This document shows, piece after piece, positions 22,317-62,613 of a DNA stretch of 64,000 bases. The notes beneath the pieces are model-generated. The model was not told the origin of the DNA and did no database searches. It saw only the letters and a list, made by a program, of their open reading frames with translations. The DNA is from Anolis carolinensis (Eukaryota), in NCBI RefSeq assembly GCF_035594765.1, contig NC_085842.1, forward strand, positions 205,913,747 to 205,977,746. The letters run 5' to 3'. A program made the translations under genes and the position numbers. Position 1 is the first letter of the stretch. Each line of letters starts with the position of its first letter.

Positions 22317-22778
22317 CCTGTAGTTTGAAACCATTGTTCCGCATCCTAGTCTCCAGGGCACCAGAAAACAAGCTTGCTCCTTCCTCCCTATGACTTCCCC
22401 TCACAAATTATACATGGCCCTCATGTCTCCTCTCAGCCTTCTCTTCTGCAGGCTAAACATGCCCGGCTCTTCAAGCCTCTCCTCACAGGCCTTGTTCACC
22501 AGACCCTTGATCATTTTAGTTGCCCTCCTCTGGACACATTCCAGCTTGTCAACATCTCCCTTCAATTGCAGTGCCCAGAATTGGACACATTTTTCCAGGT
22601 GTGGTCTGACCAAGGCGGAATAGAGGGGTAGCATGACTTCCCTGGCTCTAGATACTATACTCCTATTTATGCAGGCCAAAATCCCCTTGGCTTTTTTAGC
22701 TGCTGCATCACATTGTGGGCTCATGTTTAACTTGTTGTCCACAAGGACTCCAAGATCTTTTTCACACATACTGCTGTC
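22317..22778 (-). mobile_element. CR1 LINE ORF2 (RT C-terminal) fragment
   Basis: [15 protein letters not shown]...[16 protein letters not shown]...[12 protein letters not shown]...KRRLRGDM is the canonical CR1 ORF2 end. Confidence 0.92.
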
Positions 22779-23100
22779 GTGCCTAAGAACTGCATTTTCC
22801 CTATCCCTATGTTCTAGAATTTTAAAAAGACCCACTTTAAAATGTACCCCCATTTCCAGCCAGTTGCAAACTATCTTCAAAGGTAGAGTCCTTTACCCAA
22901 TTCTGTCCTAGCCAAGGCTAGGTCTGCATTCTTTAGGAAAGAGGGCAACCAGTATATTATTGGGAGAAGATACTTCCAGCAACCACAACTATCTGTCCAG
23001 TTCTGAATCCAGTTACATTCCCCAGCTACTAATCTGATTCTTAGGGAGGAGTGCACGCACTGGAAATAGAGTAATTGTTTATTTCCAGGTTACTGGAACC

Positions 23101-29201: not shown

Positions 29202-29603
29202 AGCATAGTTTACTACACTCTATTGCAGATTCTGTGGCAGCAATTTTATGTAATACAACTAGGTATTTCACATTAGCAACCTGTTCCAGTCCAATTCCAT
29301 TTTATCTTTCAGACAATGAAATACTGACAGTAGCTATTAGGTATGAGTTTTAACTTCCCCCTGCACCTTTTAAGTATTTTTTTTGTTAATTTTTGAATGC
29401 TGTCTATATATATTTTGAATGCTCAATGTTGACAGCTGCTGTACACAGCTGCCAGACACTGGTATTTTGGCATCTTCTGCTGTCAAAAGCAAATAAAGAA
29501 CAGTGTGCATATACATGTCCAAACAGCAGGTGGTGTGGTGGCAGAAAAGGCCAATTGACTTCAGGTACACATTGCACCATTGCTCAAACTTAGTCTCTTT
29601 TTT

Positions 29604-31038
29604 GGGAGGTTTAAAATGAGTTTATTTTTCTTTATTTTAGACAGCCTACATGACAAGCTTTTAAAAACCAGTGCCTCTGCTCCAAATATTTCAGGGTCAA
29701 AATAAATCAAATTAAGCTCAAGACAGCATCAGTCCAGTTTTTAGACATCACTGAGTCATGATGTTTTGTTGATGAATATAGAGCAGCAGCCAATTATGAT
29801 GAGGATGGGTGATCCTGAAGAGCTGATCTTTTGTTAACATTTCTCCATCTCTAATCCATGGTTAAAGAAAATCATAGATGGGGTCACGCCTTCCTCACGG
29901 AAATCCAACAAGGCCACCATGCCATCTGGATTCATGTTCTCGCCTACAAAAAACTGGTAATTTTTGAAGTTGGCAATGATATATTTGACTTGTTCAGCTG
30001 CCTCTGTCATGAACAGCTTTATTTGCTCTGGCTTTGTTTCCTTAAGTCTGGTTTTGATTGCTTTCATGTAGTCCTTGATGTACTTCTTGTAAGACTCTTT
30101 AGTGAAACTTGTCTCCTGGAGGTGATGGTTCATGACAGTGTCAATGCCAGTGATAACTGTGGCTTCTGCCCTTTCACATTCTAGACCAGGCATGGGCAAA
30201 CTTTTTTTACCTTGGGGCTATATTGTGGGCCTAGCTGGGTAGGCCGGACCAGGAGACAGGGTGGCTGTCTCTGTGCTGAGTGGGGTAGGCCTGTAAGGGG
30301 TAAGCCCCAGGAGGGGGCAGGGCAGGGCCTAGATCATCATCAGTTTGCCCTCCCAGCATAACAACGGGGTTGCTTTTCCCATCCTTATGCCAGGAGGAAG
30401 GCAGGATATACAGTGACTGCCCCAATCCTCCTCCCCTGATCTTCAGGCTGTCCTCTTCACATTATGCTGGGAGGAGGGCAAGGCACGTGGTGGCTGAGAG
30501 TGCTCTGGGGGGCTCTCAGCTACCTCGTGCCTTCCTTGAGCTGTCCTCCCAGCATAAGGATGGGGCTCTCACACCATCCTTATGTCGTGAGGAGGGTGAG
30601 ACACGTGGTGGCTGGGCGTGCTCTAGCGGCACAGGGGAGACGTGTCTGCCTCTCCTGTCCTGCTGTGTCCTTATGCCAAGAGGACAGGGAAAATTAGGAG
30701 GGCCTGAGATAAGTGCCCAGGGAGCTGCATCTGGCCCCTGGGCCTTAGTTTGTTCATGCCTGTCCTAGACCTTCAGAAGACGCTTTTCCATCAATTAAGG
30801 CATCATCTATTTTGCCTTCTTTCCTGCTCACCATCTTTCCCTCCAATTCCAGGCAGAGTCCGTTGGCCACTTCTTTAATCTTTTAGATGTTTGAGAACAT
30901 CTCATCTTCACTGATACAGCCGTGGTAGATAATCATGGCTGATGCATCAGGCAAATTTGGGCCAAGGTGGCAGGTGGTCTGTGACAGAGGAGCGGCTCGG
31001 CAGCGGCCCCCATCGCCAACAAGGAGAAAGGCGGAAAT
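29604..31038 (-). pseudogene. TPT1: Processed pseudogene of translationally controlled tumour protein (TCTP)
   Basis: Intronless. ATG at 30936 reads [37 protein letters not shown], then after the hAT insertion [33 protein letters not shown]...[22 protein letters not shown]...GLEMEKC* (stop at 29834). TPT1-like 3' UTR with AATAAA, pyrimidine-rich 5' end, and a roughly 19-bp degenerate TSD. Confidence 0.96.
30187..30762. mobile_element. hAT/Charlie MITE inserted into the TPT1 pseudogene
   Basis: TIRs CAGGCATGGGCAAACT...AGTTTGTTCATGCCTG and TSD TTCTAGAC/TCCTAGAC (30179-30186, 30763-30770), matching the NTCTAGAN Charlie target. Confidence 0.9.
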
Positions 31039-31623: not shown

Positions 31624-32739
31624 CTCTGTTGCCAACATCGTCCAAAAGCTAACCATAGTCACTCTGGAGGACTCAGGCGTTCCTAGGAAACTGCTTTCTT
31701 GAAGACTTCCAGCACCATTATATGGTCACCTTCTGACATAAGTTGACTATAGAGTTTCCCCAGAGAAACTAGATGTTCCTAGAGAAGTTTTCTCTCCAGT
31801 TAAAAAAAGTTTATTTTCTATTCATTTTTCCCCAGTTCACAGGGGTCCTCAGCCCCAGTGCCTTCAAAAGTAGATAGTCTACTGCACAAGGAAACAATGA
31901 AGCCTCTGCACAATTCGATCAAATAAATGAGCAACTAACAACAAGGTGAACTCATTTTATTATATCTGCAGTTGGCTCTCAGACAGAGAATTAAACCTGA
32001 ATGAGCTCTTTCTCAACAGATTTTCAGAAGCTCCCAACTCTCTTGGCATGCTGAAAAATCACTCTAATAAGTTTGTCCAATTTTATATTGGAAATGCTGC
32101 TGAGAAAGTGAATCTTCTGGATAACAAACTAAACCAAAACAGTTAAATGCCTGCTAGCTTAACCAGGAGTTAATTAATGAAGGATGGAAATCCAATCCCT
32201 GACAGATGAATTTGTTTATTTTCAATTTTGGAATAGAATTAGAAAGGCAATAGCAAATCAACCTAGCTTAGCAACCAATTCATTGCATTGATTATTGTAT
32301 TCCAGTTCCTGAATATTCACATAGCATTTCCAAGGATAGGAACATCCACTATAGTAGAGATGGTAAGTTGGGGTCTGTTACATCAGAAAATGTTTCTATC
32401 TCTTAATGACATAACTTTAGCAATATCAAAAGACTCATCTCGACACATACAGAAGAATCCTCCCCATACATATACCTCTTTTTTTTTTTTTTTTTAAATG
32501 ATCTTTATTAAAGAATTTCCAGATAACACTTATCGTCTAAGGGAAAAGGTGGGTGGAGAGGTAGGTTATGGGACAGGGAATTAAGGGAGGGGAGGGGAAG
32601 GGGTGGGTAGTGCGTGGGGAGACCAGACCTGTGGGGAGGGAAAGGGAAAATAATAGGTAAAGGGCCCTTAGAGTGGGGTGGGGAAGGGGAGGGGGATGGA
32701 CCTCCGCTCTACTATCTTCTGTTAGTCTTCCTGTTTGAT

Positions 32740-35700
32740 TCATCTTCTTAGCTCTTCTTCTACATAGTCTTCAAATAGTGTCCAGTCCGTTTCTTTCATT
32801 ATTCCTCCTGTATTTTTTTTAATCAAAAAAGTTAACTTGTCCATGTTCTTAATATCCATGACTTTGTTTAGCCACATCTCTCTCGTAGGGGTTTCTGCAT
32901 TCTTCCAATCTTTGGCAATTACCAGTCTCGCAGCCGTTATTAAATAAGTATAAATTTTATCTAAATTCTCCTTGTTTTTCGCTTCTACTTTATTCTCATT
33001 TTCGAAGATATTGTATAGCCCTAATAAATAGTATTCGGGTTTGCATTCCAAATTTATTTTCAGAATTTTCCTACTTTCCACGTTAATTATAGACCAGAAC
33101 TTTTTAACTTTTTTACAGCTCCACCACATGTGGAAGTAAGACCCCACCTGCTCTTTACACCTCCAACATTTGTTATCAATATTGTTATACATTAAGGCAA
33201 TTTTTTTAGGTGTCAGGTACCACCTATGAATGATTTTAATCCAGTTTTCCTTGAGGTCAGTGGCCCGGCAGTATTTGATTTTCTTATTCCAAATCGCCTC
33301 CCATTCATTTAGTAGAATTGGCCTGTTTATATCTCTTGACCATTTTAGCATTGATTCCTTTATTACTTCCTTTTCCGTGTTCCACTCCACTAATTTATTG
33401 TATAAAATAGTTAATACCTTTTTCTCTCTTTGTAAAATAATATCCCAAAACTCATCAGATGGACTAAAACCTTGTTTTTTATCAGCCCTAAAACAATCTC
33501 TTAATTGGTAATAGTGTAGCCATGATATATTCTTATATTTGATTTGAATTTCTTCTAACTTCTTTATCTCTGGTAATCCATTCCTGTTTGACCAGTTTAA
33601 CACCTCCTTATACGTTGGCCAGGATATCCACCCTAATTCTCGTCTCTGATATGCTTCTAACGGCGAGAGCCACAGCGGAGTCTTTTCATAGAAAAATCTT
33701 TTATACTTAGTCCAAGTTTTTAGTAGCGCCGATCTCACAAAATGATTACCAAAATTCCTTTCAATTTTATGTTTACCATACCATAAATACCCATGCCAGC
33801 CCCTTCTTAAATTATAGCCTTCTAATGATAAAATTTTCGCTTTTTTTAAGTTCGCCCAATCTCTAATCCAATCTAAAGCACAGGCCTCGTGGTATAATTT
33901 GAGGTCTGGCAAATCAAGTCCCCCTCTTTCTTTGGGAGTTAGCATCGTCGAGAGCTTGATCCTGGGTCTTTTATTGTTCCACACAAATTTTCTTATGTCT
34001 TTATTCCAATTATTGAATATTTGATTGTTCCTTATTATGGGAATGTTCCTGAATATGTACAGCATCTTTGGAAGGACTGACATTTTTACTGTCGCTATTC
34101 TGCCTAACAGAGATATTTTTAAATTTTTCCATTCCTCCAGATCTTTTTTTATTTCTTTCCATTTCCTCACGTAATTAAGTTCCAGCAAGCGATTATTTTT
34201 TGACGCAATCCAGATGCCTAAATATTTAATTTTGTTTGCAAATTGGAGTCCCGTTTCTTTCTTTATTATTTCCAAGTCCTGTGATGTCAGATTCTTTGTC
34301 AACATTACTGATTTGTCTTTATTAATTTTGAACCCTGCCAATTTTCCAAATTCTTCAATTTTATTTAGCCAAATTCTTGTATTATCCCTAGGGTTTTCTA
34401 TTATGCAGATTACATCATCCGCGAATGCTCTGGCTTTTATTTCCTGACTATCTACTTTAATTCCTACTAACTTGCTATCTTCCCTTATGGAACGCAATAA
34501 AATTTCTAGGGTCATTATGAAAATCAACGGCGAGAGTGGACAGCCCTGTCTAGCTCCTCTATTAATATTGAATTTTCCCGACGTCTGACCGTTTACTCTA
34601 ATGATAGCTTCTTGCTGGGTATATATAGCATTTATAGTATTTTGAAACTGTGCCCCCATATCTAATTCTCGTAATAGCAATTTTATGAAATCCCAATTCA
34701 ACTGGTCAAAAGCTTTCTCAGCATCTAGTGCGAGAAAGCCTACTGTCTTTTGGTGATTATACTCGTAATATTCAATTGCGTCAATTATTATCCTGATGTT
34801 ATCTTTTGTGCTGCGGTTTGGTAAGAAGCCTGACTGGTCGTCTGCGATCCAATTGTTTAAAAATTTTGATAATCTTTTTGCCATAATTTTAGTAAAGAGT
34901 TTGTAATCCGTATTTAGCAGCGCTATTGGTCGATAATTTTTAACATCACTTTGATCTTTCCCTTCCTTATGGATCATTATTATCTCCGCTTCACTCCACG
35001 TTTTTGGGATAATACTTTCTGTTAAGACCAAATTCATTATTTGCACCAAATGTGCAATAACCTCCTCCTGTTCAATTTTGTAAAACCCAGCTATAAACCC
35101 GTCTAATCCGGGCGCTTTGTTTGCTTCTGTTTCTTTTATCGCTTCTTTCACTTCTTCGGGTGTTATTGCTTTATTTAAGTCTAATCGTTGCTCATCTGTT
35201 ATCTTTTGCAATTTTTGCTTACATAGATATTTTACTATTTCCTCCTGGCTGATCCCTTCCTTTTCGTACAGTTGCTCATAATACTTTTTAAATTCTTCCT
35301 TTATTTCCTCATCAGTATACACTGTTCTCCCTTGCGAATTAATTTTTAGTACTTGTTGACTATACCTTTTCTTCCTTAATAATCTAGCAAGCCACTTTCC
35401 AGGCTTGTTAGCGTTTTCAAATGAATATTGCTTTGCCCACTTTATCTGGTTTGCTAAGTTATCTAATTCGAGGTTTTTTTTCTGGTTCCTAAAAATGGTC
35501 AACTGCTGGTTTATTTTATTGTTACCCGGATTCGCTTTAAGTGCTTTTTCCTTTTGCTCTATTTGAATTTGTAATCTTTTTAAATTCTCCTTTTTCGTTC
35601 TCGTTTTCAACTTCTTTTGCTGAATAAAGAACCCTCTGGCCACTGCCTTGTATGCGTCCCATATAATTAGTGGGTCAGACTCTTGAATATTATTAAATTT

Positions 35701-36519
35701 AAAATATTCTTTCGTCATTTGCCTAATTTTAACGATGTCCTCTTCTCTTTTAATTAAATTATCGTCTAATCTCCATTTCAAATTTATTTTTTTCTTATTG
35801 ATTTCCATTAACATAGCACCGTGATCAGATAAATCTCTAGCCATAATTTCTACCTTATTTATTTTAGTGGTTAACAATTTAGACACCCAAATCATGTCGA
35901 TTCTTGACCACGAGTTGTGACGACTTGAATAGAATGTATAATCTAATTGGGTGGGGTTTCTCAATCTCCATGAATCGTGGAGGTCGTATTCATTCTTTAG
36001 ATCTATAAAATTCTGTGGTAACATGTTGTTTGTTATGGTCTTTTTATATGCTTTTTTATCTCTGTTTTTTTCCAATATACCATTGAAATCCCCCATTATA
36101 ATAATGTGATTAAAATCACTCTCCCTAATATGGTTTCTTAAATTTTTGACAAACTTTCTTTTTGGCCCGTTAGGTGCATAAATATTACAAATTAAAATTG
36201 TTTCTGAATTTGATTCAATTTTCGCTGCTACTATTCTACCCTCATTATCTTTAAATTCTAAAGATGGATTTAATTTATTGTTAATATACAGGGCCACTCC
36301 TTTTTTCTTCTTCTCCCGGTCTAGAGAGTGGTATAACTTTCCCAGGTTGTCCTTAAACAAATATTTGGCCTGGCTTTGTTTGATGTGCACTTCTTGTAAA
36401 GCAATTACATCAAAGTTATTCTTTTTTAGATAATTATATACCCTTTTTCTCTTTGTGGGCGCATTCAGACCGTTGATGTTGTTTGAGAAAACCTTTATTG
36501 ATTGGTTAAAATCATTCAT
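32740..36519 (-). CDS. L1 ORF2p: APE endonuclease, reverse transcriptase and C-terminal CCHC, 1259 aa
   Basis: EN motifs NINGL, LQE, NIYAPN, GDFN, SRID and SDH. RT motifs YRPIALLN, LDAEKAFD, RQGCPLSP, FADD and KYLG. CWRC...HMWWSC knuckle. No stops or frameshifts. Confidence 0.97.
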   Translation of the reverse strand: MNDFNQSIKVFSNNINGLNAPTKRKRVYNYLKKNNFDVIALQEVHIKQSQAKYLFKDNLGKLYHSLDREKKKKGVALYINNKLNPSLEFKDNEGRIVAAKIESNSETILICNIYAPNGPKRKFVKNLRNHIRESDFNHIIIMGDFNGILEKNRDKKAYKKTITNNMLPQNFIDLKNEYDLHDSWRLRNPTQLDYTFYSSRHNSWSRIDMIWVSKLLTTKINKVEIMARDLSDHGAMLMEINKKKINLKWRLDDNLIKREEDIVKIRQMTKEYFKFNNIQESDPLIIWDAYKAVARGFFIQQKKLKTRTKKENLKRLQIQIEQKEKALKANPGNNKINQQLTIFRNQKKNLELDNLANQIKWAKQYSFENANKPGKWLARLLRKKRYSQQVLKINSQGRTVYTDEEIKEEFKKYYEQLYEKEGISQEEIVKYLCKQKLQKITDEQRLDLNKAITPEEVKEAIKETEANKAPGLDGFIAGFYKIEQEEVIAHLVQIMNLVLTESIIPKTWSEAEIIMIHKEGKDQSDVKNYRPIALLNTDYKLFTKIMAKRLSKFLNNWIADDQSGFLPNRSTKDNIRIIIDAIEYYEYNHQKTVGFLALDAEKAFDQLNWDFIKLLLRELDMGAQFQNTINAIYTQQEAIIRVNGQTSGKFNINRGARQGCPLSPLIFIMTLEILLRSIREDSKLVGIKVDSQEIKARAFADDVICIIENPRDNTRIWLNKIEEFGKLAGFKINKDKSVMLTKNLTSQDLEIIKKETGLQFANKIKYLGIWIASKNNRLLELNYVRKWKEIKKDLEEWKNLKISLLGRIATVKMSVLPKMLYIFRNIPIIRNNQIFNNWNKDIRKFVWNNKRPRIKLSTMLTPKERGGLDLPDLKLYHEACALDWIRDWANLKKAKILSLEGYNLRRGWHGYLWYGKHKIERNFGNHFVRSALLKTWTKYKRFFYEKTPLWLSPLEAYQRRELGWISWPTYKEVLNWSNRNGLPEIKKLEEIQIKYKNISWLHYYQLRDCFRADKKQGFSPSDEFWDIILQREKKVLTILYNKLVEWNTEKEVIKESMLKWSRDINRPILLNEWEAIWNKKIKYCRATDLKENWIKIIHRWYLTPKKIALMYNNIDNKCWRCKEQVGSYFHMWWSCKKVKKFWSIINVESRKILKINLECKPEYYLLGLYNIFENENKVEAKNKENLDKIYTYLITAARLVIAKDWKNAETPTREMWLNKVMDIKNMDKLTFLIKKNTGGIMKETDWTLFEDYVEEELRR

Positions 36520-37579
36520 TTGCCGCTATCTCCTCTTCTACTTCCTCCACGCTATCCGATAAGTCCTCAGTCTCTTTGTCCTTTGAAAACTGGATCAATA
36601 GCTCCTCAGCTTCTTTGGGAGAGTCGAATCTTCTTTTTTTTGTGTCCTTGGGATTTTTTTCCTTTTCTGCCGATTCCAGTTGTTTCTTTTGGGATAAATC
36701 TTTCTTCAATTTTCGGTAAAACTCGTCTGCCTTCTCTTCAGAAGTAATCCAATTTTTTTCACCATTGTAGGTCACCATAATCCCCTCGTATTTCTCCCAC
36801 CGGAATTTTATTTGCAGTCTCTTTAATTCGTCCGTAAGAAAGAAGTAGTTCCTACGTCTGTTTAATATAGATAGTGGAAACTCTTTTAATACCGCAACTC
36901 TTCGGTCTTTGTGGATAATTGGATTGCTTTTATTATTCCTCAGTAATTCGTCTCTATAGTTTTTTCTTGCGAAATGGACAATTACATCCCTAGCCACTTT
37001 ATTTTTTTTTGCATAATTCGTGTTTATTCTATATGCTCTATCAATCTGAGCACTGGTTTCCTGTTCGCTGCTGTTCATAGCTTTTGCTACTAGACTAATT
37101 ATGGTGCTTCTGATATTCTCCTTAGCCTCTTCCTGGACATTCCTAAATCTCAGTTGGAATTCCGTTTCGTTTAATTCCATCTTTTCCTGTAATTTTTCTA
37201 ATTTACTATTCTTAGCTTCAATCCCTTCTACTCTCCTTTGTAGTTTACTTCGTGTTCTTTCCTCTTTTACTTTCTCATCTCTCAGTTCAAGAATGTCCTT
37301 TGAGTTTTTTTGCACCTCACTTTTGATTGTGTACATCTCCTCTCTCAGCTCTTTTTTTAACTCAGTCAGTTCTTCTTGAAATAATTTTTGTTGCAAGTCT
37401 TGTTTACTGGCAATGGCTTGAATGTCCTTCTGTAGCAGGTCTTGTTTCTCCGAGACCCGTTGGATCTCTCTCAAAAGATCTTTCAAGTTTACTTCATCCG
37501 GGGTCGGGATCGAGTTCCTTCTTTGACCTGTTTTCAGCTCTTTCCAATCTTTATCCAGCTTTCCCTTGAAAGTTGCCAT
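36512..37579 (-). CDS. L1 ORF1p: coiled coil, RRM and CTD RNA-binding protein, 355 aa
   Basis: Heptad-rich N-terminal half, then LRFRNVQE, IDRAYRI, RDVIVHF and a basic CTD typical of vertebrate L1 ORF1p. Lies directly upstream of ORF2. Confidence 0.92.
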   Translation of the reverse strand: MATFKGKLDKDWKELKTGQRRNSIPTPDEVNLKDLLREIQRVSEKQDLLQKDIQAIASKQDLQQKLFQEELTELKKELREEMYTIKSEVQKNSKDILELRDEKVKEERTRSKLQRRVEGIEAKNSKLEKLQEKMELNETEFQLRFRNVQEEAKENIRSTIISLVAKAMNSSEQETSAQIDRAYRINTNYAKKNKVARDVIVHFARKNYRDELLRNNKSNPIIHKDRRVAVLKEFPLSILNRRRNYFFLTDELKRLQIKFRWEKYEGIMVTYNGEKNWITSEEKADEFYRKLKKDLSQKKQLESAEKEKNPKDTKKRRFDSPKEAEELLIQFSKDKETEDLSDSVEEVEEEIAANE

Positions 37580-38699
37580 ACTCCTCTCTTACGTGCTATT
37601 ATTTGTTCCTTGCTATGTTGTTTTATTGTTATATTGTAATTATGAATCAAACTCTCCGCCAGTATATGGCTCAGGTGCTCTGGGTCCAATCCGTCACACT
37701 TTTCCAGGTCACCACGACCTCCGACTGGCTCAGACTATATCCTCGGTACCACACTATATATATTGGTTGCTTCCTCCGGCTCAGGTTTCAATACCAAGAA
37801 GAAGCTCCTCTTCTCTTGCTTAGATGCCTACTTTACTCAATTCCCTGCAATAAAGACACGGCCTGAGGTATACTCAATAATATAATAATACATTACTGAA
37901 AAAAGGAAAACACCATAGAGACCGTACACCCTTTCTTCAGGTACTGCTCCTCCCGGAACCAGGCTTCCCCTTATTGTTGGGTCACTCCCGCCTCTGTTGT
38001 CGATATGTCAATATGCTCCGCAACTCCAGCCTGACTCCACCAGGGGCCTGTTATCCGGGGTACCCTTATTTTACTTACACAACCCCTCTTCTCTACGAAT
38101 TGATGCTCCTGCGGTGGTCTGCTGGAGTCTTTACTAGTCTTTGCTGGTCATGGACAGGTTTAAGCGTGTTTGTTTCCCACCGGAAGATCAACAGCGTCCC
38201 TCTGCGTAATTCCTCCTCGTAGTGTGTGTCGCTTAAGGCTTTCCCTCCGTGTTCCTTCCGTTCTCTTCAGCAGTTCTCGCCAGGGCTGTAGGCTCCCCCA
38301 CAGCTCTCGCGAGCCTCTGCTTATCTCCTGAGGGCTGCCGCAGACACAACAGCTTGCTCCAAGGTCAGTGGATTTCCAATCTCACCCTCTTCCTTGGGTC
38401 CGTTCGAAAAAAAAAGGAGATTTTGTTGAAACGCTGCCTTTCTCTTTTGGATCTGCCGTCCATAAACCACCTCCAAGCACGCTTACACAGTCTCTTTTTC
38501 TCGTGTCCCGGTCCGTTTCTTCCCAGTTCTAGCACTACCCGAACCCTTCCTAACACTTGAATTCCAACTGGGTATATGCTATGTTACACCAGAACAATAC
38601 AGTGGGTGCAGGGTACGTCTTCCTCATAATCTCATCATCTCATAAACTCCGGACACCATACTCTTATAACCAACTCGTTGCAGCCATATTCCTCCACAG

Positions 38700-39070
38700 C
38701 CGATAGTGAGCCCAATCAATGTTTGAACTTACGTTTCTATCTCCGGCTTCCCCACGCCGGAGTCTCGCTGCACTGGAACAATTTATTCCTTCTTGATGCG
38801 AGCGCGGCATACAGCTTGTAGAGAGATAGCTCTCTCTAGCGCACGAGCCGCTCCATGCTTGTCCCAATCCTCCGGACCCGCTCAATCCTCCACCCTTGAG
38901 GGGTGGCTGATTTTTGGGGCCATCGGTGGACGATGCGGACTTTGCTATCCCTCGCCGTATCGATCCGCGGGGAGGGCTGAGCCAAAGGCTCAAATTGGAC
39001 GCGATCTCGTGTGTACCATCAGGAGCCCCGGTGGTGCACGTCTGTCGCCATTCAGCGCTCACCGGAAGTC
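38700..39070 (-). promoter_or_regulatory. L1 internal promoter (CpG-rich 5' end)
   Basis: The element starts GACTTCCGGTGAGCGCTGAATGGCG (ETS-type CTTCCGG and YY1-type ATGGCG cores) and has high CpG density. Confidence 0.6.
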
Positions 39071-40870
39071 CCCCATACATATACCTCTTGTGTTAGGCTG
39101 CCAAAATGAGGAGAATCTGGGTTAAGACAAGAACGGATGTGTGCAAGCTGCTATTCGGAATGGAAAATAAATTCTTGGGCTGAGCATGTACACAGTGGCA
39201 ATTTGTTCTTCAGTTCATCTATGGCTTACCTTCCTGAACTATTATTTTGCTCCTGGCTTTGATTAATGGACCTCAAGAGTTTGGTGAAAAGCAACATAGA
39301 TTTCATGTGCTCAGAGCCTCCCAACTACTGCTGCTTTGCAGATTCAGGTCATCATATCAGTGACTAAAGATCCTGAAAACCTTGATGAGATGCGAAGACA
39401 AGGGTGAATCGCTACTTGACTCTACCTCTATGGCATCTTAACAGCTCACTAATTTATTACAGTATTAGCTTTTGTATTCTATAGTTCCCTTCACTGGATG
39501 GGTGGAATGTTATCCAAAATGTCAGGTGTGTATGATTGAGATCGTTATTGAATCCCGGCACCCCAAAAGACCTCAAAATCCATAGCCAAGAACAACACCA
39601 TGAAGGGTTCTACTATCTGATGTCTAGAATGACCTTTCCCACAGAAACATTGTCCAGTTAACATCTGAACATAAAATTTTCCCCATAGTTGCACAAGTAC
39701 ACATGTGCTAATCCTATTACTTCTCTGGTTGCTTGGCATAATTGCCTGGTGATCATTCTTCCTCGCCAACAATAAAACTCTCCACCCAACAATAAATTAA
39801 TCCCTGGCCAGCCATAAGGGTCTCCAAGTCACCCAATATCTTGCCACTGTGTCTCCCTGGAAACCCATCAAGGTGTTCTGGTATCCATTCTTTCCCCACC
39901 CAGACCCGTTGTCACATCCTAGCTGGTAGGAATCAAATCAGCCCTGAACCCTGCCCATATTCCTTCCCGCATGCACCCAAGGAAGGAGGACTCAGGAAAC
40001 AGCCAGAAGCTTCAAACAGAGCATTTGTAGTTTATTAACATTCCTGCCAGATAAGGAAACCAATCAGATGCAGCAGGAGACAGCATGCCTCCTCCAATCA
40101 GCATTTGGATCATAACTTGCACTAATCAGTTCCCAGAGCAGCCAAAGTCCATTGTTTGAATAGCTGTCAAATCTCTATAAATGTTTCTGTATGTATCCAT
40201 TGCTTTATGTCTGATTTGAGAATGCTGACTCTCTGATATCCACTTTTGGCCAAAGTGAATAAAGCATCTGATCCTTGACTTCGACCTACTTGAATCTAAT
40301 TTGATTTTTTGGACCCTAGGCATGTCGGGAACCAGAACATGCAATGCTTGCAAAGCTGAAATCACATATAAAAATGGAAGGGAGTTCAGAGGGAAATTAT
40401 ATGTACAAAGTTGGTGACCATTAGGTGAAGATATATGAATGATCTCTACTTTGGCATTGTATATTACATATTGAATGAAGAAATGTTCCAGGAGAAAACC
40501 AAAAGACTTTTTCTCCATTTGAGAAAAAGAACACCTAACTTTGGTCCTGTCTGAGACACTGGGAGGTCATTAGAGTGTACTGTTGCTGAGAAGGGATGGG
40601 AATGTGTCTCCAGGATAAGCAGTTCCTGTCTATATGCATTCTTCCTATGTCCTGCTTAACAGATACATATATAAGTAATCAGATATTATTAAATATGCCA
40701 AAGATGTTATCACAGGAACCCACTATTCCACTTCAAGTGCATTATCATTGACAGTGGATATTACTGGGCTGAGAACCTTTGATATTGCACTCAATCATGC
40801 CATTTGCCAGTATGCCAATCCATGATGCCATGACTGTATTTCTGTATACTGTCATAATTCTGCCATCCTG

Positions 40871-49523: not shown

Positions 49524-50350
49524 GTATGACACAGCAAACAAGATAGATATGCTGGATTTCGTTTCACAAAATCACAAGTCGAACACTTCCCAAGTGTCTA
49601 GGACTGTGTGATGTATTTTTGGATGATGCGTGCAGATCCCAGCAGGGTGGCCTTTTGCAGTTGGCAGATCGTAATTTTGTCAATGTCTATTGTTTCCAAA
49701 TGCCGGCTGAGATCTTTTGGCACGGCACCCAATGTGCCCATCACCACCGGGACCACCTGCACTGGTTTCTGCCAGAGTCTTTGAAGTTCAATCTTGAGGT
49801 CCTGATAGCAGTTGAGTTTTTCCTGTTGTTTTTCGTCAATGCGACTGTCACCTGGGATGGCAACATCAATGACCCAAGCCTTTTTCTTTTCCACAACTGT
49901 GATGTCTGGTGTGTTGTGTTCCAGAACTTTGTCAGTCTGGATTCGGAAGTCCCACAGTATTTTTGCGTGCTCATTTTCCAATACTTTTGCAGGTTTGTGA
50001 TCCCACCAGTTCTTTGCTGCTGGCAGGTGGTACTTGAGGCATAAGTTCCAATGAATCATTTGGGCCACATAGTTGTGCCTCTGTTTGTAGTCTGTCTGTG
50101 CGATTTTCTTACAGCAGCTGAGGATATGATCAATGGTTTCGTTGGTTTCCTTGCACAGTCTGCGTTTTGGGTCATCAGCTGATTTTTCGATCTTGGCCTT
50201 AATTGCATTTGTTCTGATGACTTGCTCCTGGGCTGCAAGGATCAGGCCTTCTGTCTCCTTCTTCAGGGTCCCATTTGTGAGCCATAGCCAGGTCTTCTCC
50301 TTGTCAGTTTTTCCTTCAATTTTGTCAAGGAAGTTTCCATGCAATGTTTT
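49524..50350 (-). mobile_element. R4/Dong (Rex6-like) RLE retrotransposon, 5'-truncated
   Basis: Open frame with a CCHC knuckle (RRLCKETNETIDHILSCC, first Cys lost), RHN motif and PD-(D/E)xK nuclease (PDITVVEKKKAWVIDVAIP...K..Y). Flanked by (TTA)n/(TTG)n. Confidence 0.92.
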
Positions 50351-50429
50351 GTTGTTGTTGTTGTTGTTGTCGTTGTTGTCGTTGTTGTCATTGTTGTTGT
50401 TGTTGTTGTTGTTATTATTATTATTATTT
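50349..50429. repeat. (TTG)n/(TTA)n compound microsatellite
   Basis: Directly visible. It produces the poly-Asn stretch in the ORF track. Confidence 0.95.
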
Positions 50430-51694
50430 CCTGTCATGTGGTGAGATACCTCCTGAAAAAAAAAACTCACACTCTTTTTCCTGCCATAGCACTAAAGGCA
50501 ATGCACATCCATAGGCACTGTTGCTCACCTCCCTATTCTGCCTTCTAGAAACCAACTAGACACCTCAACCCCTCCCTATAAGGATGGCTCTCACGGAAGA
50601 TTACCATGGGGCGGGAAAACACTTTATCTCCAGGTAACTAGTGAAGCAAGTAGGGAAATAGACGCAGAAGGGATCACAAGTTCAACCTCCTGCCAGGCAG
50701 AAATACACAGCTAAAGAACTTCAGAAAGAGACGGCACACACACACAGTAAGATGCTTCCTTTCAGGCCTCTGCAAGAATTATCAGGAGTTTAAAATGTGA
50801 TGCCCAGATAGGGCACTCACATAGTCAGTGTTGCCCTTCTATGTTGCTCCTCTCAGCACAAACATCAAGGCATCCACTCTTCCATGTGAGAAACACAAAA
50901 ACAAAGTATCCTGTAATAAGCTCCAAAGCACAGCACCTTGCCCTACTATCTGCCCCCTTCCTACACTGCAAACAAATAGAGATTATGCCCATAGATTAAG
51001 CAAAACTTTTTCTTTAGAAGCAAATGTACCTCTTTCTAAAACACACACACTCACATGTATGCAAACTCATCTCATAAACCTACACTCTCCTGGATTCATG
51101 AGAGGTCACTTGGATGAAAGAGACTACACACACTCTCCTGAGACCCCAAAATCTTGTGTTCATGGTTATATACTGTGAATAATTTCTGGACATAGTATAT
51201 GAAAGAAAATTATTGGGTCCCATTATGTTTCAGGATGACCTAACTACATGAGGAAATAAGCCATGGAGGGAAAGAAATTAAAGCGATAAGAGGGTGAAAA
51301 ATCAAAACAAAGGTGGCCTTTTTTAAAGCTTCATTTTGATTATGCAGGTTTTTCATTTAAATGGTGATTCTGTGGTAGGGGCACATGCAATTTGTATTAG
51401 CCAAAGACTTGCCATATATATTGTTGTATAAGTCGACTTCATGTGTACAAGTCAAGGGCAGGCTGGGGGCCAAAATTTGGACTTTTGCTGTGATCTCATA
51501 ATGTCTACATCTGTGAAATACAGAGAGGGGATAGAATATAAATGGGGGAAAAGAATGAGAATGCAGCCAGAAAAAAGGGGAGGGGAGAATAGCAAGAAAA
51601 GCAACCTGCCTCTATTACAGACCCAGCACAAGGTCAGTGGCAGGAGGCAGAGATGAGAAGTGTTCCCACTCTATTATGTCCCTTTGGGAAGGGG

Positions 51695-62279: not shown

Positions 62280-62613
62280 GGTGATAAATGCTCCCATCAT
62301 TGTTGTGAAAAAACTATGAGCAGGTCTCAATCTTTCTTAAAGTTAGTCAAGGATTTCTATTTAACTAGTAACTATTTAACATAGTAACTCAATTTCAGCT
62401 ATTTCACAGATCATCATCAACTATTCTTGCTTTGAGACAACTGGTTGGTGATAAATGCTCCCATCATTGTTGTGAAAAAACTATGAGCAGGTCTCAATCT
62501 TTCTTAAAGTTAGTCAAGGATTTCTATTTAACTAGTAACTATTTAACATAGTAACTCAATTTCAGCTATTTCACAGATCATCATCAACTATTCTTGCTTT
62601 GAGACAACTGGTT
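62280..62613. repeat. Perfect 2 x 167-bp tandem duplication
   Basis: 62280-62446 is repeated at 62447-62613, with no mismatch that I could see. Confidence 0.92.

What the first reader, a model, noticed from the sequence alone, without database searches (positions are those of the whole stretch)
32462..39089. Potentially retrotransposition-competent L1
Both ORFs are open with all EN and RT catalytic motifs. The 5' UTR is complete, CpGs are retained, poly(A) is present and the 19-bp TSD is perfect. This points to a very recent, possibly polymorphic insertion, and a candidate for a functional non-mammalian L1. The target (AC/AAGAGG on the element strand) departs from the mammalian TT/AAAA consensus.
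Basis: partly seen in the sequence, partly recalled or inferred. Interest (0 to 1): 0.7.

Follow-up and report, generated by a model that had tools for sequence, protein, structure and literature searches.

The report
Intact polymorphic lizard LINE-1 insertion
This is a complete, undamaged LINE-1 jumping gene that is missing from the same spot in most other sequenced individuals checked, so it is a recent insertion and likely still able to jump; that is ordinary for anole lizards, though its family may choose landing sites more loosely than neighbouring families.

Summary
Observation confirmed: a 6,590-nt minus-strand L1 (39070-32481) with a perfect 19-bp TSD, 15-17 A tail, CpG-rich 1,491-nt 5'UTR, ORF1 (355 aa, predicted human ORF1p fold) overlapping ORF2 (1,259 aa, all EN/RT/CCHC residues). 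It fits published lizard 'clade 1' L1s; the host is likely the green anole. It is polymorphic: 6 of 8 public runs hold one contig across the empty site; one run appears to carry the insertion. Two 5'-truncated siblings are 99.1% and 99.5% identical but are not its daughters. Its 11 private coding changes are mostly silent (3 nonsynonymous vs 7.6 expected, p=0.004), the mark of a replicating lineage rather than decay. Competence is likely but untested. It is not rare: 13 of 81 L1 loci fetched have both ORFs open, and about 1,000 polymorphic full-length anole L1s are published. AC/AAGAGG is normal for its family (AC at 4 of 21 sites). All 41 lizard sites show a purine run, L1-style; T at -1 is 9/21 in this family vs 16/20 in sister families (post hoc p=0.025) despite a near-identical endonuclease hairpin. 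Verdict: new member of a known kind, with a modest lead on target choice.

The parts
39071..39089 (-). Target-site duplication, 5' copy (19 bp)
   Evidence: single copy in empty-site contigs
37580..39070 (-). 5'UTR, 1,491 nt, CpG-rich, likely internal promoter; 15 upstream ATGs (siblings have 10-16)
   Evidence: promoter role inferred from L1 biology
39046..39070 (-). Lizard clade-1 5' terminal motif GACTTCCGGTG-N8-ATGGCG
   Evidence: motif as published in PMC5381506
36512..37579 (-). ORF1, 355 aa: coiled coil (aa 32-140), RRM, CTD, acidic disordered tail
32740..36519 (-). ORF2, 1,259 aa; starts 8 nt inside the end of ORF1
35821..36480 (-). APE-type endonuclease domain (aa 14-233), hairpin T195-S205
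   Evidence: Pfam PF03372 E 6e-14
34207..34974 (-). Reverse transcriptase domain (aa 516-771, FADD at 699-702)
   Evidence: Pfam PF00078 E 2e-39
33115..33168 (-). C-terminal CCHC motif (aa 1118-1135)
32496..32739 (-). 3'UTR, C-rich on the sense strand, AATAAA at 32509-32504
32481..32495 (-). Poly(A) tail, 15 A (17 counting two A shared with the TSD)
32462..32480 (-). Target-site duplication, 3' copy (19 bp)

Best explanation
This is a full-length, both-ORF-intact lizard clade-1 LINE-1 that is absent from this site in most other individuals examined, was likely inserted recently by target-primed reverse transcription, and is likely still able to retrotranspose. Shown: anatomy, motifs, empty alleles, near-identical siblings, mostly silent private changes. 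Inferred from L1 biology: the 5'UTR drives a bicistronic RNA; ORF1p coats it; ORF2p nicks the bottom strand at 5'-CTCTT/GT-3', primes cDNA from the poly(A) on the freed T/C-rich end and nicks the top strand about 19 nt away. Inferred from sequence: its source was another, likely also polymorphic, full-length copy that is not in this assembly. Competence itself I put at about 0.6.
For: Empty site joined in one contig, 32461 to 39071, in X5, X15, X18 and X2, X16, X19. X1 has a contig running from the flank through the TSD 27 nt into the element. Siblings L061 99.1% and L062 99.5%. Private coding changes: 3 of 11 nonsynonymous vs 7.57 expected, P=0.0035, whereas L061 has 3 of 5 plus a 27-nt deletion and L062 1 of 3 plus a 1-nt insertion. 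Only one ORF2 residue (I822 for L) and no ORF1 residue is unique among 13 aligned copies each. pN/pS 0.06-0.13 against six family members. Runs with the empty site hold 5'UTR contigs about 99% identical to it (e.g. X15 38608-38825, 2 differences; X16 37466-37776, 2 differences), whereas the nearest 5' ends in the assembly are 92%.
Against: No activity or RNA data: no RNA run was laid. No daughter copy carrying its private variants was found among the best 40 scored hits per search, and L061/L062 lack the 7 private changes in the stretch all three share. The first 1,395 nt have no close sibling in the assembly, so a private promoter lesion cannot be excluded. Fewer than half of both-ORF-intact human L1s are active in culture (PMC5203782, passage). 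X1's 27 nt inside the element fall short of the tool's 31-nt bridging rule, and X1 need not be independent of the assembly; X7's second piece is not listed.
Confidence: 0.8

Rival explanations
1. Recent, polymorphic but dead-on-arrival or silenced copy: open ORFs, yet no transcription or no jumping.
For: No daughters found; 15 upstream ATGs and 25 sense AATAAA signals; about half of intact human L1s are inactive.
Against: Upstream ATGs (10-16) are a family trait and 14-33 poly(A) signals per ORF2 are normal for lizard consensuses (PMC5381506 supplement 2); private changes are mostly silent; low copy number and fast turnover explain a lack of daughters (PMC5389967).
Confidence: 0.35
2. The copy is the master element that produced the two 99% siblings.
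For: It is the only full-length member of the 99% trio in this assembly.
Against: Seven changes in the shared 2.8 kb are private to it and both siblings carry the outgroup base; tails of both siblings run straight into their TSDs with no transduced flank.
Confidence: 0.05
3. The AC/AAGAGG site reflects an unusual or endonuclease-independent insertion.
For: Three mismatches to TT/AAAA in the six core positions by direct reading; family mean is 2.05.
Against: Perfect 19-bp TSD, intact 3' end and tail, no target deletion; AC/ at 4 of 21 family sites; +1 to +3 purines at all 20 family sites tallied.
Confidence: 0.04
4. Assembly artefact or old fixed insertion.
For: None found.
Against: Unique flanks on both sides, clean empty alleles in 6 of 8 runs, a filled-type junction in X1, CpG retention.
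Confidence: 0.02

Closest known systems
Anolis carolinensis clade-1 L1 families (L1AC1-15; Boissinot and Sookdeo 2016, PMC5381506)
   Same: 6.15-6.7 kb length, long CpG-rich 5'UTR, the 5' motif, ORF1 about 1,066 nt, ORF1/ORF2 overlap, A-rich sense strand. Sister copies L113-L117 match short L1_AC1 motifs with 0-3 mismatches.
   Different: Its 5' start is not in the first 400 nt shown for any of the lizard consensuses in that supplement, and six published internal primers do not match within 3 mismatches. It may be one of the 8 of 20 families not in that file, or a Repbase family; I could not check. GC 38.9% and 5'UTR 1,491 nt are just above the published ranges. It has one RhxxhE trimer motif (aa 116), said to be rare in lizard.
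Polymorphic full-length anole L1 loci (Tollis and Boissinot 2013, PMC3787681; Ruggiero 2017, PMC5389967)
   Same: Young full-length copies under 1% diverged, at low to moderate frequency; 1,089 full-length polymorphic L1 calls reported.
   Different: Not the similar-sized chr2 locus L1AC11_2:10: its two flanking primers are absent from the window. Whether it is among the 2017 MELT calls was not checked.
Human L1 (L1Hs ORF1p/ORF2p)
   Same: ORF2p domain order and catalytic residues; ORF1 model's ten best fold matches are human ORF1p, E 4e-7 to 5e-6; poly(A), TSD, purine-run target.
   Different: Hairpin has R200 where human has P197; ORFs overlap; ORF1 has a long acidic tail and 16-20% identity; sites fit TT/AAAA loosely; TSDs are long (36 of 41 are 15-20 bp, hand count; 13-15 bp is the quoted mammal/zebrafish mode).

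Membership tests
L1 clade non-LTR retrotransposon | ORF2 with N-terminal APE endonuclease, RT and C-terminal CCHC, closest to L1 ORF2p | tested here: met
L1 clade non-LTR retrotransposon | ORF1 of coiled coil-RRM-CTD type | tested here: met
   Single-sequence Pfam and PDB searches gave nothing relevant; profile hit human ORF1p E 1.6e-4; model matches human ORF1p (pTM 0.39, pLDDT 72)
L1 clade non-LTR retrotransposon | 3' poly(A) tail and variable-length TSD, no LTRs | tested here: met
   empty alleles
L1 clade non-LTR retrotransposon | Insertion at Y/purine-run (TT/AAAA-like) sites | tested here: met
   +1..+4 all purine in 33 of 40 sites, pyrimidine at -1 in 33 of 40, exact TT/AAAA 4 of 40; +1/+2 are partly forced by extending the TSD into the tail
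Lizard clade-1 L1 | 5' motif GACTTCCGGTG-N8-ATGGCG, long 5'UTR, no intergenic spacer | tested here: met
A named L1AC family | Under about 2% divergence from a published family consensus | tested here: inconclusive
   No match to the 5' starts shown or to primers; only 400 nt of each of 12 of 20 consensuses visible; Repbase not available
Retrotransposition-competent L1 | Full length, both ORFs open, catalytic residues intact | tested here: met
Retrotransposition-competent L1 | Transcribed from its own promoter | not tested
   The one run search and both read-laying runs went to DNA presence/absence
Retrotransposition-competent L1 | Jumps in a reporter assay or has daughters | not testable with these tools
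   No daughter found in silico

The most novel reading that the evidence does not exclude
This copy is a live member of a lizard L1 family whose integration has lost the preference for T just before the cut (9 of 21 T, 8 of 21 C, no different from background) while sister families in the same genome keep it (16 of 20 T), with essentially the same endonuclease hairpin. Target choice would then be tuned outside the hairpin and differ between coexisting L1 families, and this natural intact copy would be a ready non-mammalian L1 to test it.
Probability: 0.3. Interest if true: 0.55.

Novelty: new member of a known kind. Interest (0 to 1): 0.3.

Why it matters
As a locus it is one more young anole L1, a class already well documented. 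Its value is as a reagent: my searches of the held library surfaced no retrotransposition assay of a lizard L1 (lizard work used human L1 and zebrafish L2; the anole element used in engineering is Vingi-1), and none showed a lizard L1 target logo. A copy with population evidence of recency and a selection signature on its own branch is a better assay candidate than open ORFs alone. If family-specific target relaxation holds, it would bear on what sets L1 site choice beyond the hairpin loop, an open point in PMC1950540 and PMC8565326.

Tried and rejected
1) Identity with published locus L1AC11_2:10 (chr2, 6,599 bp): rejected, 0 primer matches at up to 2 mismatches. 2) Assignment to a named family: no match; inconclusive. 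3) Master of L061/L062: rejected. 4) Hairpin difference as the cause of the -1 difference: rejected, YTFYS[S/N]RHNSWSRID is shared by this family and the L095/L101 families that favour T. 5) Spliced 5'UTR copies: the internal deletions in L103 and L087 do not have GT..AG ends. 6) Host gene at the site: 139 of 165 open stretches of 68 aa or more outside the element gave no Pfam hit above cut-off; short exons would be missed, so genic context is unknown. 7) Human position weights for comparison: the paper I sought was not held, so no quantitative human comparison was made. 8) Earlier scan notes: none near or similar. 9) Contig depth was not used as copy number.
Full report
Observation. The element lies on the minus strand from 39070 to 32481 (6,590 nt). 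The only exact repeat of 10 or more nt linking its ends is 19 bp, at 32462-32480 and 39071-39089; a 17-T run at 32479-32495 gives a 15-17 A tail. ORF1 (355 aa) and ORF2 (1,259 aa) are open and overlap by 8 nt. ORF2 has Pfam endonuclease and RT domains, aligns with human ORF2p over residues 4-1230 (E 4e-162), and keeps every catalytic residue checked across 13 aligned copies. ORF1 alone gave no relevant Pfam or PDB hit, but a 13-copy profile hit human ORF1p (E 1.6e-4) and the predicted model (pLDDT 72, pTM 0.39) has human ORF1p as its ten best fold matches. CpG observed/expected is 0.71-0.92 in the 5'UTR and ORFs against 0.22 in the rest of the window.

What it is. The 5' end matches the lizard clade-1 motif GACTTCCGGTG-N8-ATGGCG, and length, long UTR and ORF overlap fit that clade (PMC5381506, passages and supplement). 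Other L1 copies in this 1.85-Gb genome match short motifs of the published L1_AC1 consensus with 0-3 mismatches, so the host is likely the green anole (inference). The element's own start is not in the visible 400 nt of the lizard consensuses in that supplement (the file holds 12 of 20 families and sequences are cut), six internal primers do not match, and it is not locus L1AC11_2:10. The family name stays open.

Is it recent? Eight of 24 listed runs were laid, two from each of four studies. In 6 of 8 (X2, X5, X15, X16, X18, X19) a single contig runs from 32461 directly into 39071: an empty site with one TSD copy and no loss of target DNA. In X7 the left piece stops at 32461 with 67 further letters whose place is not listed. 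In X1 a contig runs from the right flank through the TSD 27 nt into the element, as a filled allele would, but short of the tool's 31-nt rule, and X1 need not be independent of the assembly. Contigs show presence, not absence, so no frequency is claimed. The insertion is polymorphic.

Relatives. Searches of the own genome (best 40 candidates scored each) found two close siblings, both 5'-truncated: L061 (99.1%, from element position 1396, 27-nt in-frame deletion) and L062 (99.5%, from 3747). The next are 95% (L063, L064) and the family grades down to 80%. The nearest 5' ends are only 92% identical, yet runs with the empty site hold 5'UTR contigs about 99% identical, so close full-length relatives likely segregate elsewhere in the population. 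Of 81 L1 loci fetched, 40 have the 5' motif and 13 have both ORFs open: intact copies are common here, in line with 170 full-length and 1,089 polymorphic full-length L1s reported (PMC5389967, passages; PMC3787681, abstract, Results part 1 and primer file).

Is it likely competent? Polarising differences with five outgroup copies: in the 2.8 kb shared by all three, 7 changes are private to the window copy, so it is not the siblings' parent. Its 11 private coding changes include 3 nonsynonymous against 7.57 expected from the same mutation types (P=0.0035); one is a CpG transition. The truncated siblings look like neutral decay (L061 3 of 5 nonsynonymous plus a deletion; L062 1 of 3 plus a 1-nt insertion). 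Its branch therefore likely accumulated changes while replicating, not while sitting here. Only I822 (L elsewhere) is unique in ORF2 and nothing in ORF1; pN/pS against six relatives is 0.06-0.13. Against: no RNA or assay data, no daughter found, the first 1,395 nt cannot be polarised, and under half of intact human L1s jump in culture (PMC5203782, passage quoting Brouha 2003, which I did not see). I put competence at about 0.6.

Target site. I examined 83 loci for TSDs: 41 kept, 13 dropped as ambiguous (L077, L081, L091, L108, L114, L115, L120, L181, L185, L190, L194, L195, L196), 29 with none found. Across the 40 tallied, +1..+4 are all purines in 33, -1 is a pyrimidine in 33, and exact TT/AAAA occurs in 4. 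This is a loose L1-type site. Because TSDs are extended into the tail, -1 cannot be A and +1/+2 are biased. In the window's family (21 sites with the copy added) -1 is T 9, C 8, G 4, no different from background (T 0.30, p=0.23); in sister families (20 sites) T 16, C 1, G 3 (p=5e-6 vs background; Fisher 0.025 between groups; 0.03 with TSDs of 15 bp or more only). AC/ occurs at 4 of 21, TT/ at 5 of 21. The family contrast is post hoc, small, hand-curated and uncorrected. The hairpin that probes the minor groove (human 193-202; PMC8565326 and PMC1950540, passages) is nearly the same in both groups, so it would not explain a real difference.

Mechanism. Shown: structure, empty alleles, sequence constraint. 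Inferred from established L1 biology: internal promoter, bicistronic RNA, ORF1p RNP, ORF2p nick at 5'-CTCTT/GT-3', poly(A)-primed cDNA, second nick about 19 nt away.

Literature. Besides those cited, passages only were read in PMC4476161, PMC3747384, PMC13708176, PMC12129022, PMC3880073, PMC6007223, PMC5322556, PMC13295347 and bioRxiv 2025.02.02.635956 (its supplements are closed). Novick 2009, Ichiyanagi and Okada 2008 and Flasch 2019 were not seen; the first two are cited through other papers, the last is recalled. Searches (listings) showed no assay of a lizard L1; searches (listings, with passages from four of the hits) showed no lizard L1 target logo. The library lacks most subscription papers, patents and Repbase, so this is weak evidence of absence. 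One supplementary file of PMC3787681 was not searchable.

Verdict. A real, intact, polymorphic lizard L1: a new member of a known kind. Interest 0.3; the family-specific target relaxation is the part worth following.

Noticed in passing
window 29370-30190 (- strand): Intronless, 5'-truncated TCTP/TPT1 retrocopy (Pfam PF00838 E 1e-45), 88-95% identical to exon pieces of an intron-containing parent at G000:C3:156.83 Mb: a processed pseudogene, likely L1-made, 2.3 kb from the element. Three more diverged copies sit 20 kb apart at C1:254.43-254.47 Mb.
   Followed up: partly
window about 38727-38732; same place in L063-L074, L092: A splice-donor-like GTAAGT at 5'UTR position 331-342 is kept in all 9 family copies checked and in L092, with further GTAAG motifs near 600 and 1000-1170; an acceptor-like tract at position 1175 is seen only in the window copy, L063 and L064. 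Could be an intron or U1 binding that guards an A-rich transcript; no spliced genomic copy found.
   Followed up: partly
L062 (G000:C5:151.02 Mb): The 99.5% sibling is inserted antisense inside an L1 of another family (66% identical pieces on both sides).
   Followed up: partly
L061:1458-2768: The 99.1% sibling interrupts an element with a 437-aa Cys/His-rich ORF that looks DIRS gag-like (label recalled; no Pfam hit).
   Followed up: no
L063, L066, L086, L090, L092, L096, L099 5' junctions: Many full-length copies carry one or two extra G between TSD and element, as expected from copying the RNA cap; the window copy has none beyond the G-ending TSD.
   Followed up: no
41 TSD sites: 36 of 41 TSDs are 15-20 bp (hand count), longer than the 13-15 bp mode quoted for mammal and zebrafish L1; the five short ones are all truncated copies. 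Search bias toward long matches is possible.
   Followed up: partly
L119:3500-7237: A truncated family copy is fused in frame behind an upstream ORF start from another element, giving a 1,246-aa chimeric ORF.
   Followed up: no
window 39342-39403 (+): A 62-nt stretch between AG and GT with one open frame, 250 nt from the element's 5' end, could be a short host exon; unverified.
   Followed up: no
window 49598-50437 (-) and 22401-22853 (-): Fragments that look like an R4-type and a CR1-type LINE 3' end (labels recalled; no Pfam hit).
   Followed up: no
window 62280-62613: Perfect 167-bp tandem duplication.
   Followed up: no
L095, L097, L100, L107, L111; L089, L090, L093, L094: Two sister families have several copies 99-99.9% identical, so they look younger and more prolific in this genome than the window's family.
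   Followed up: partly
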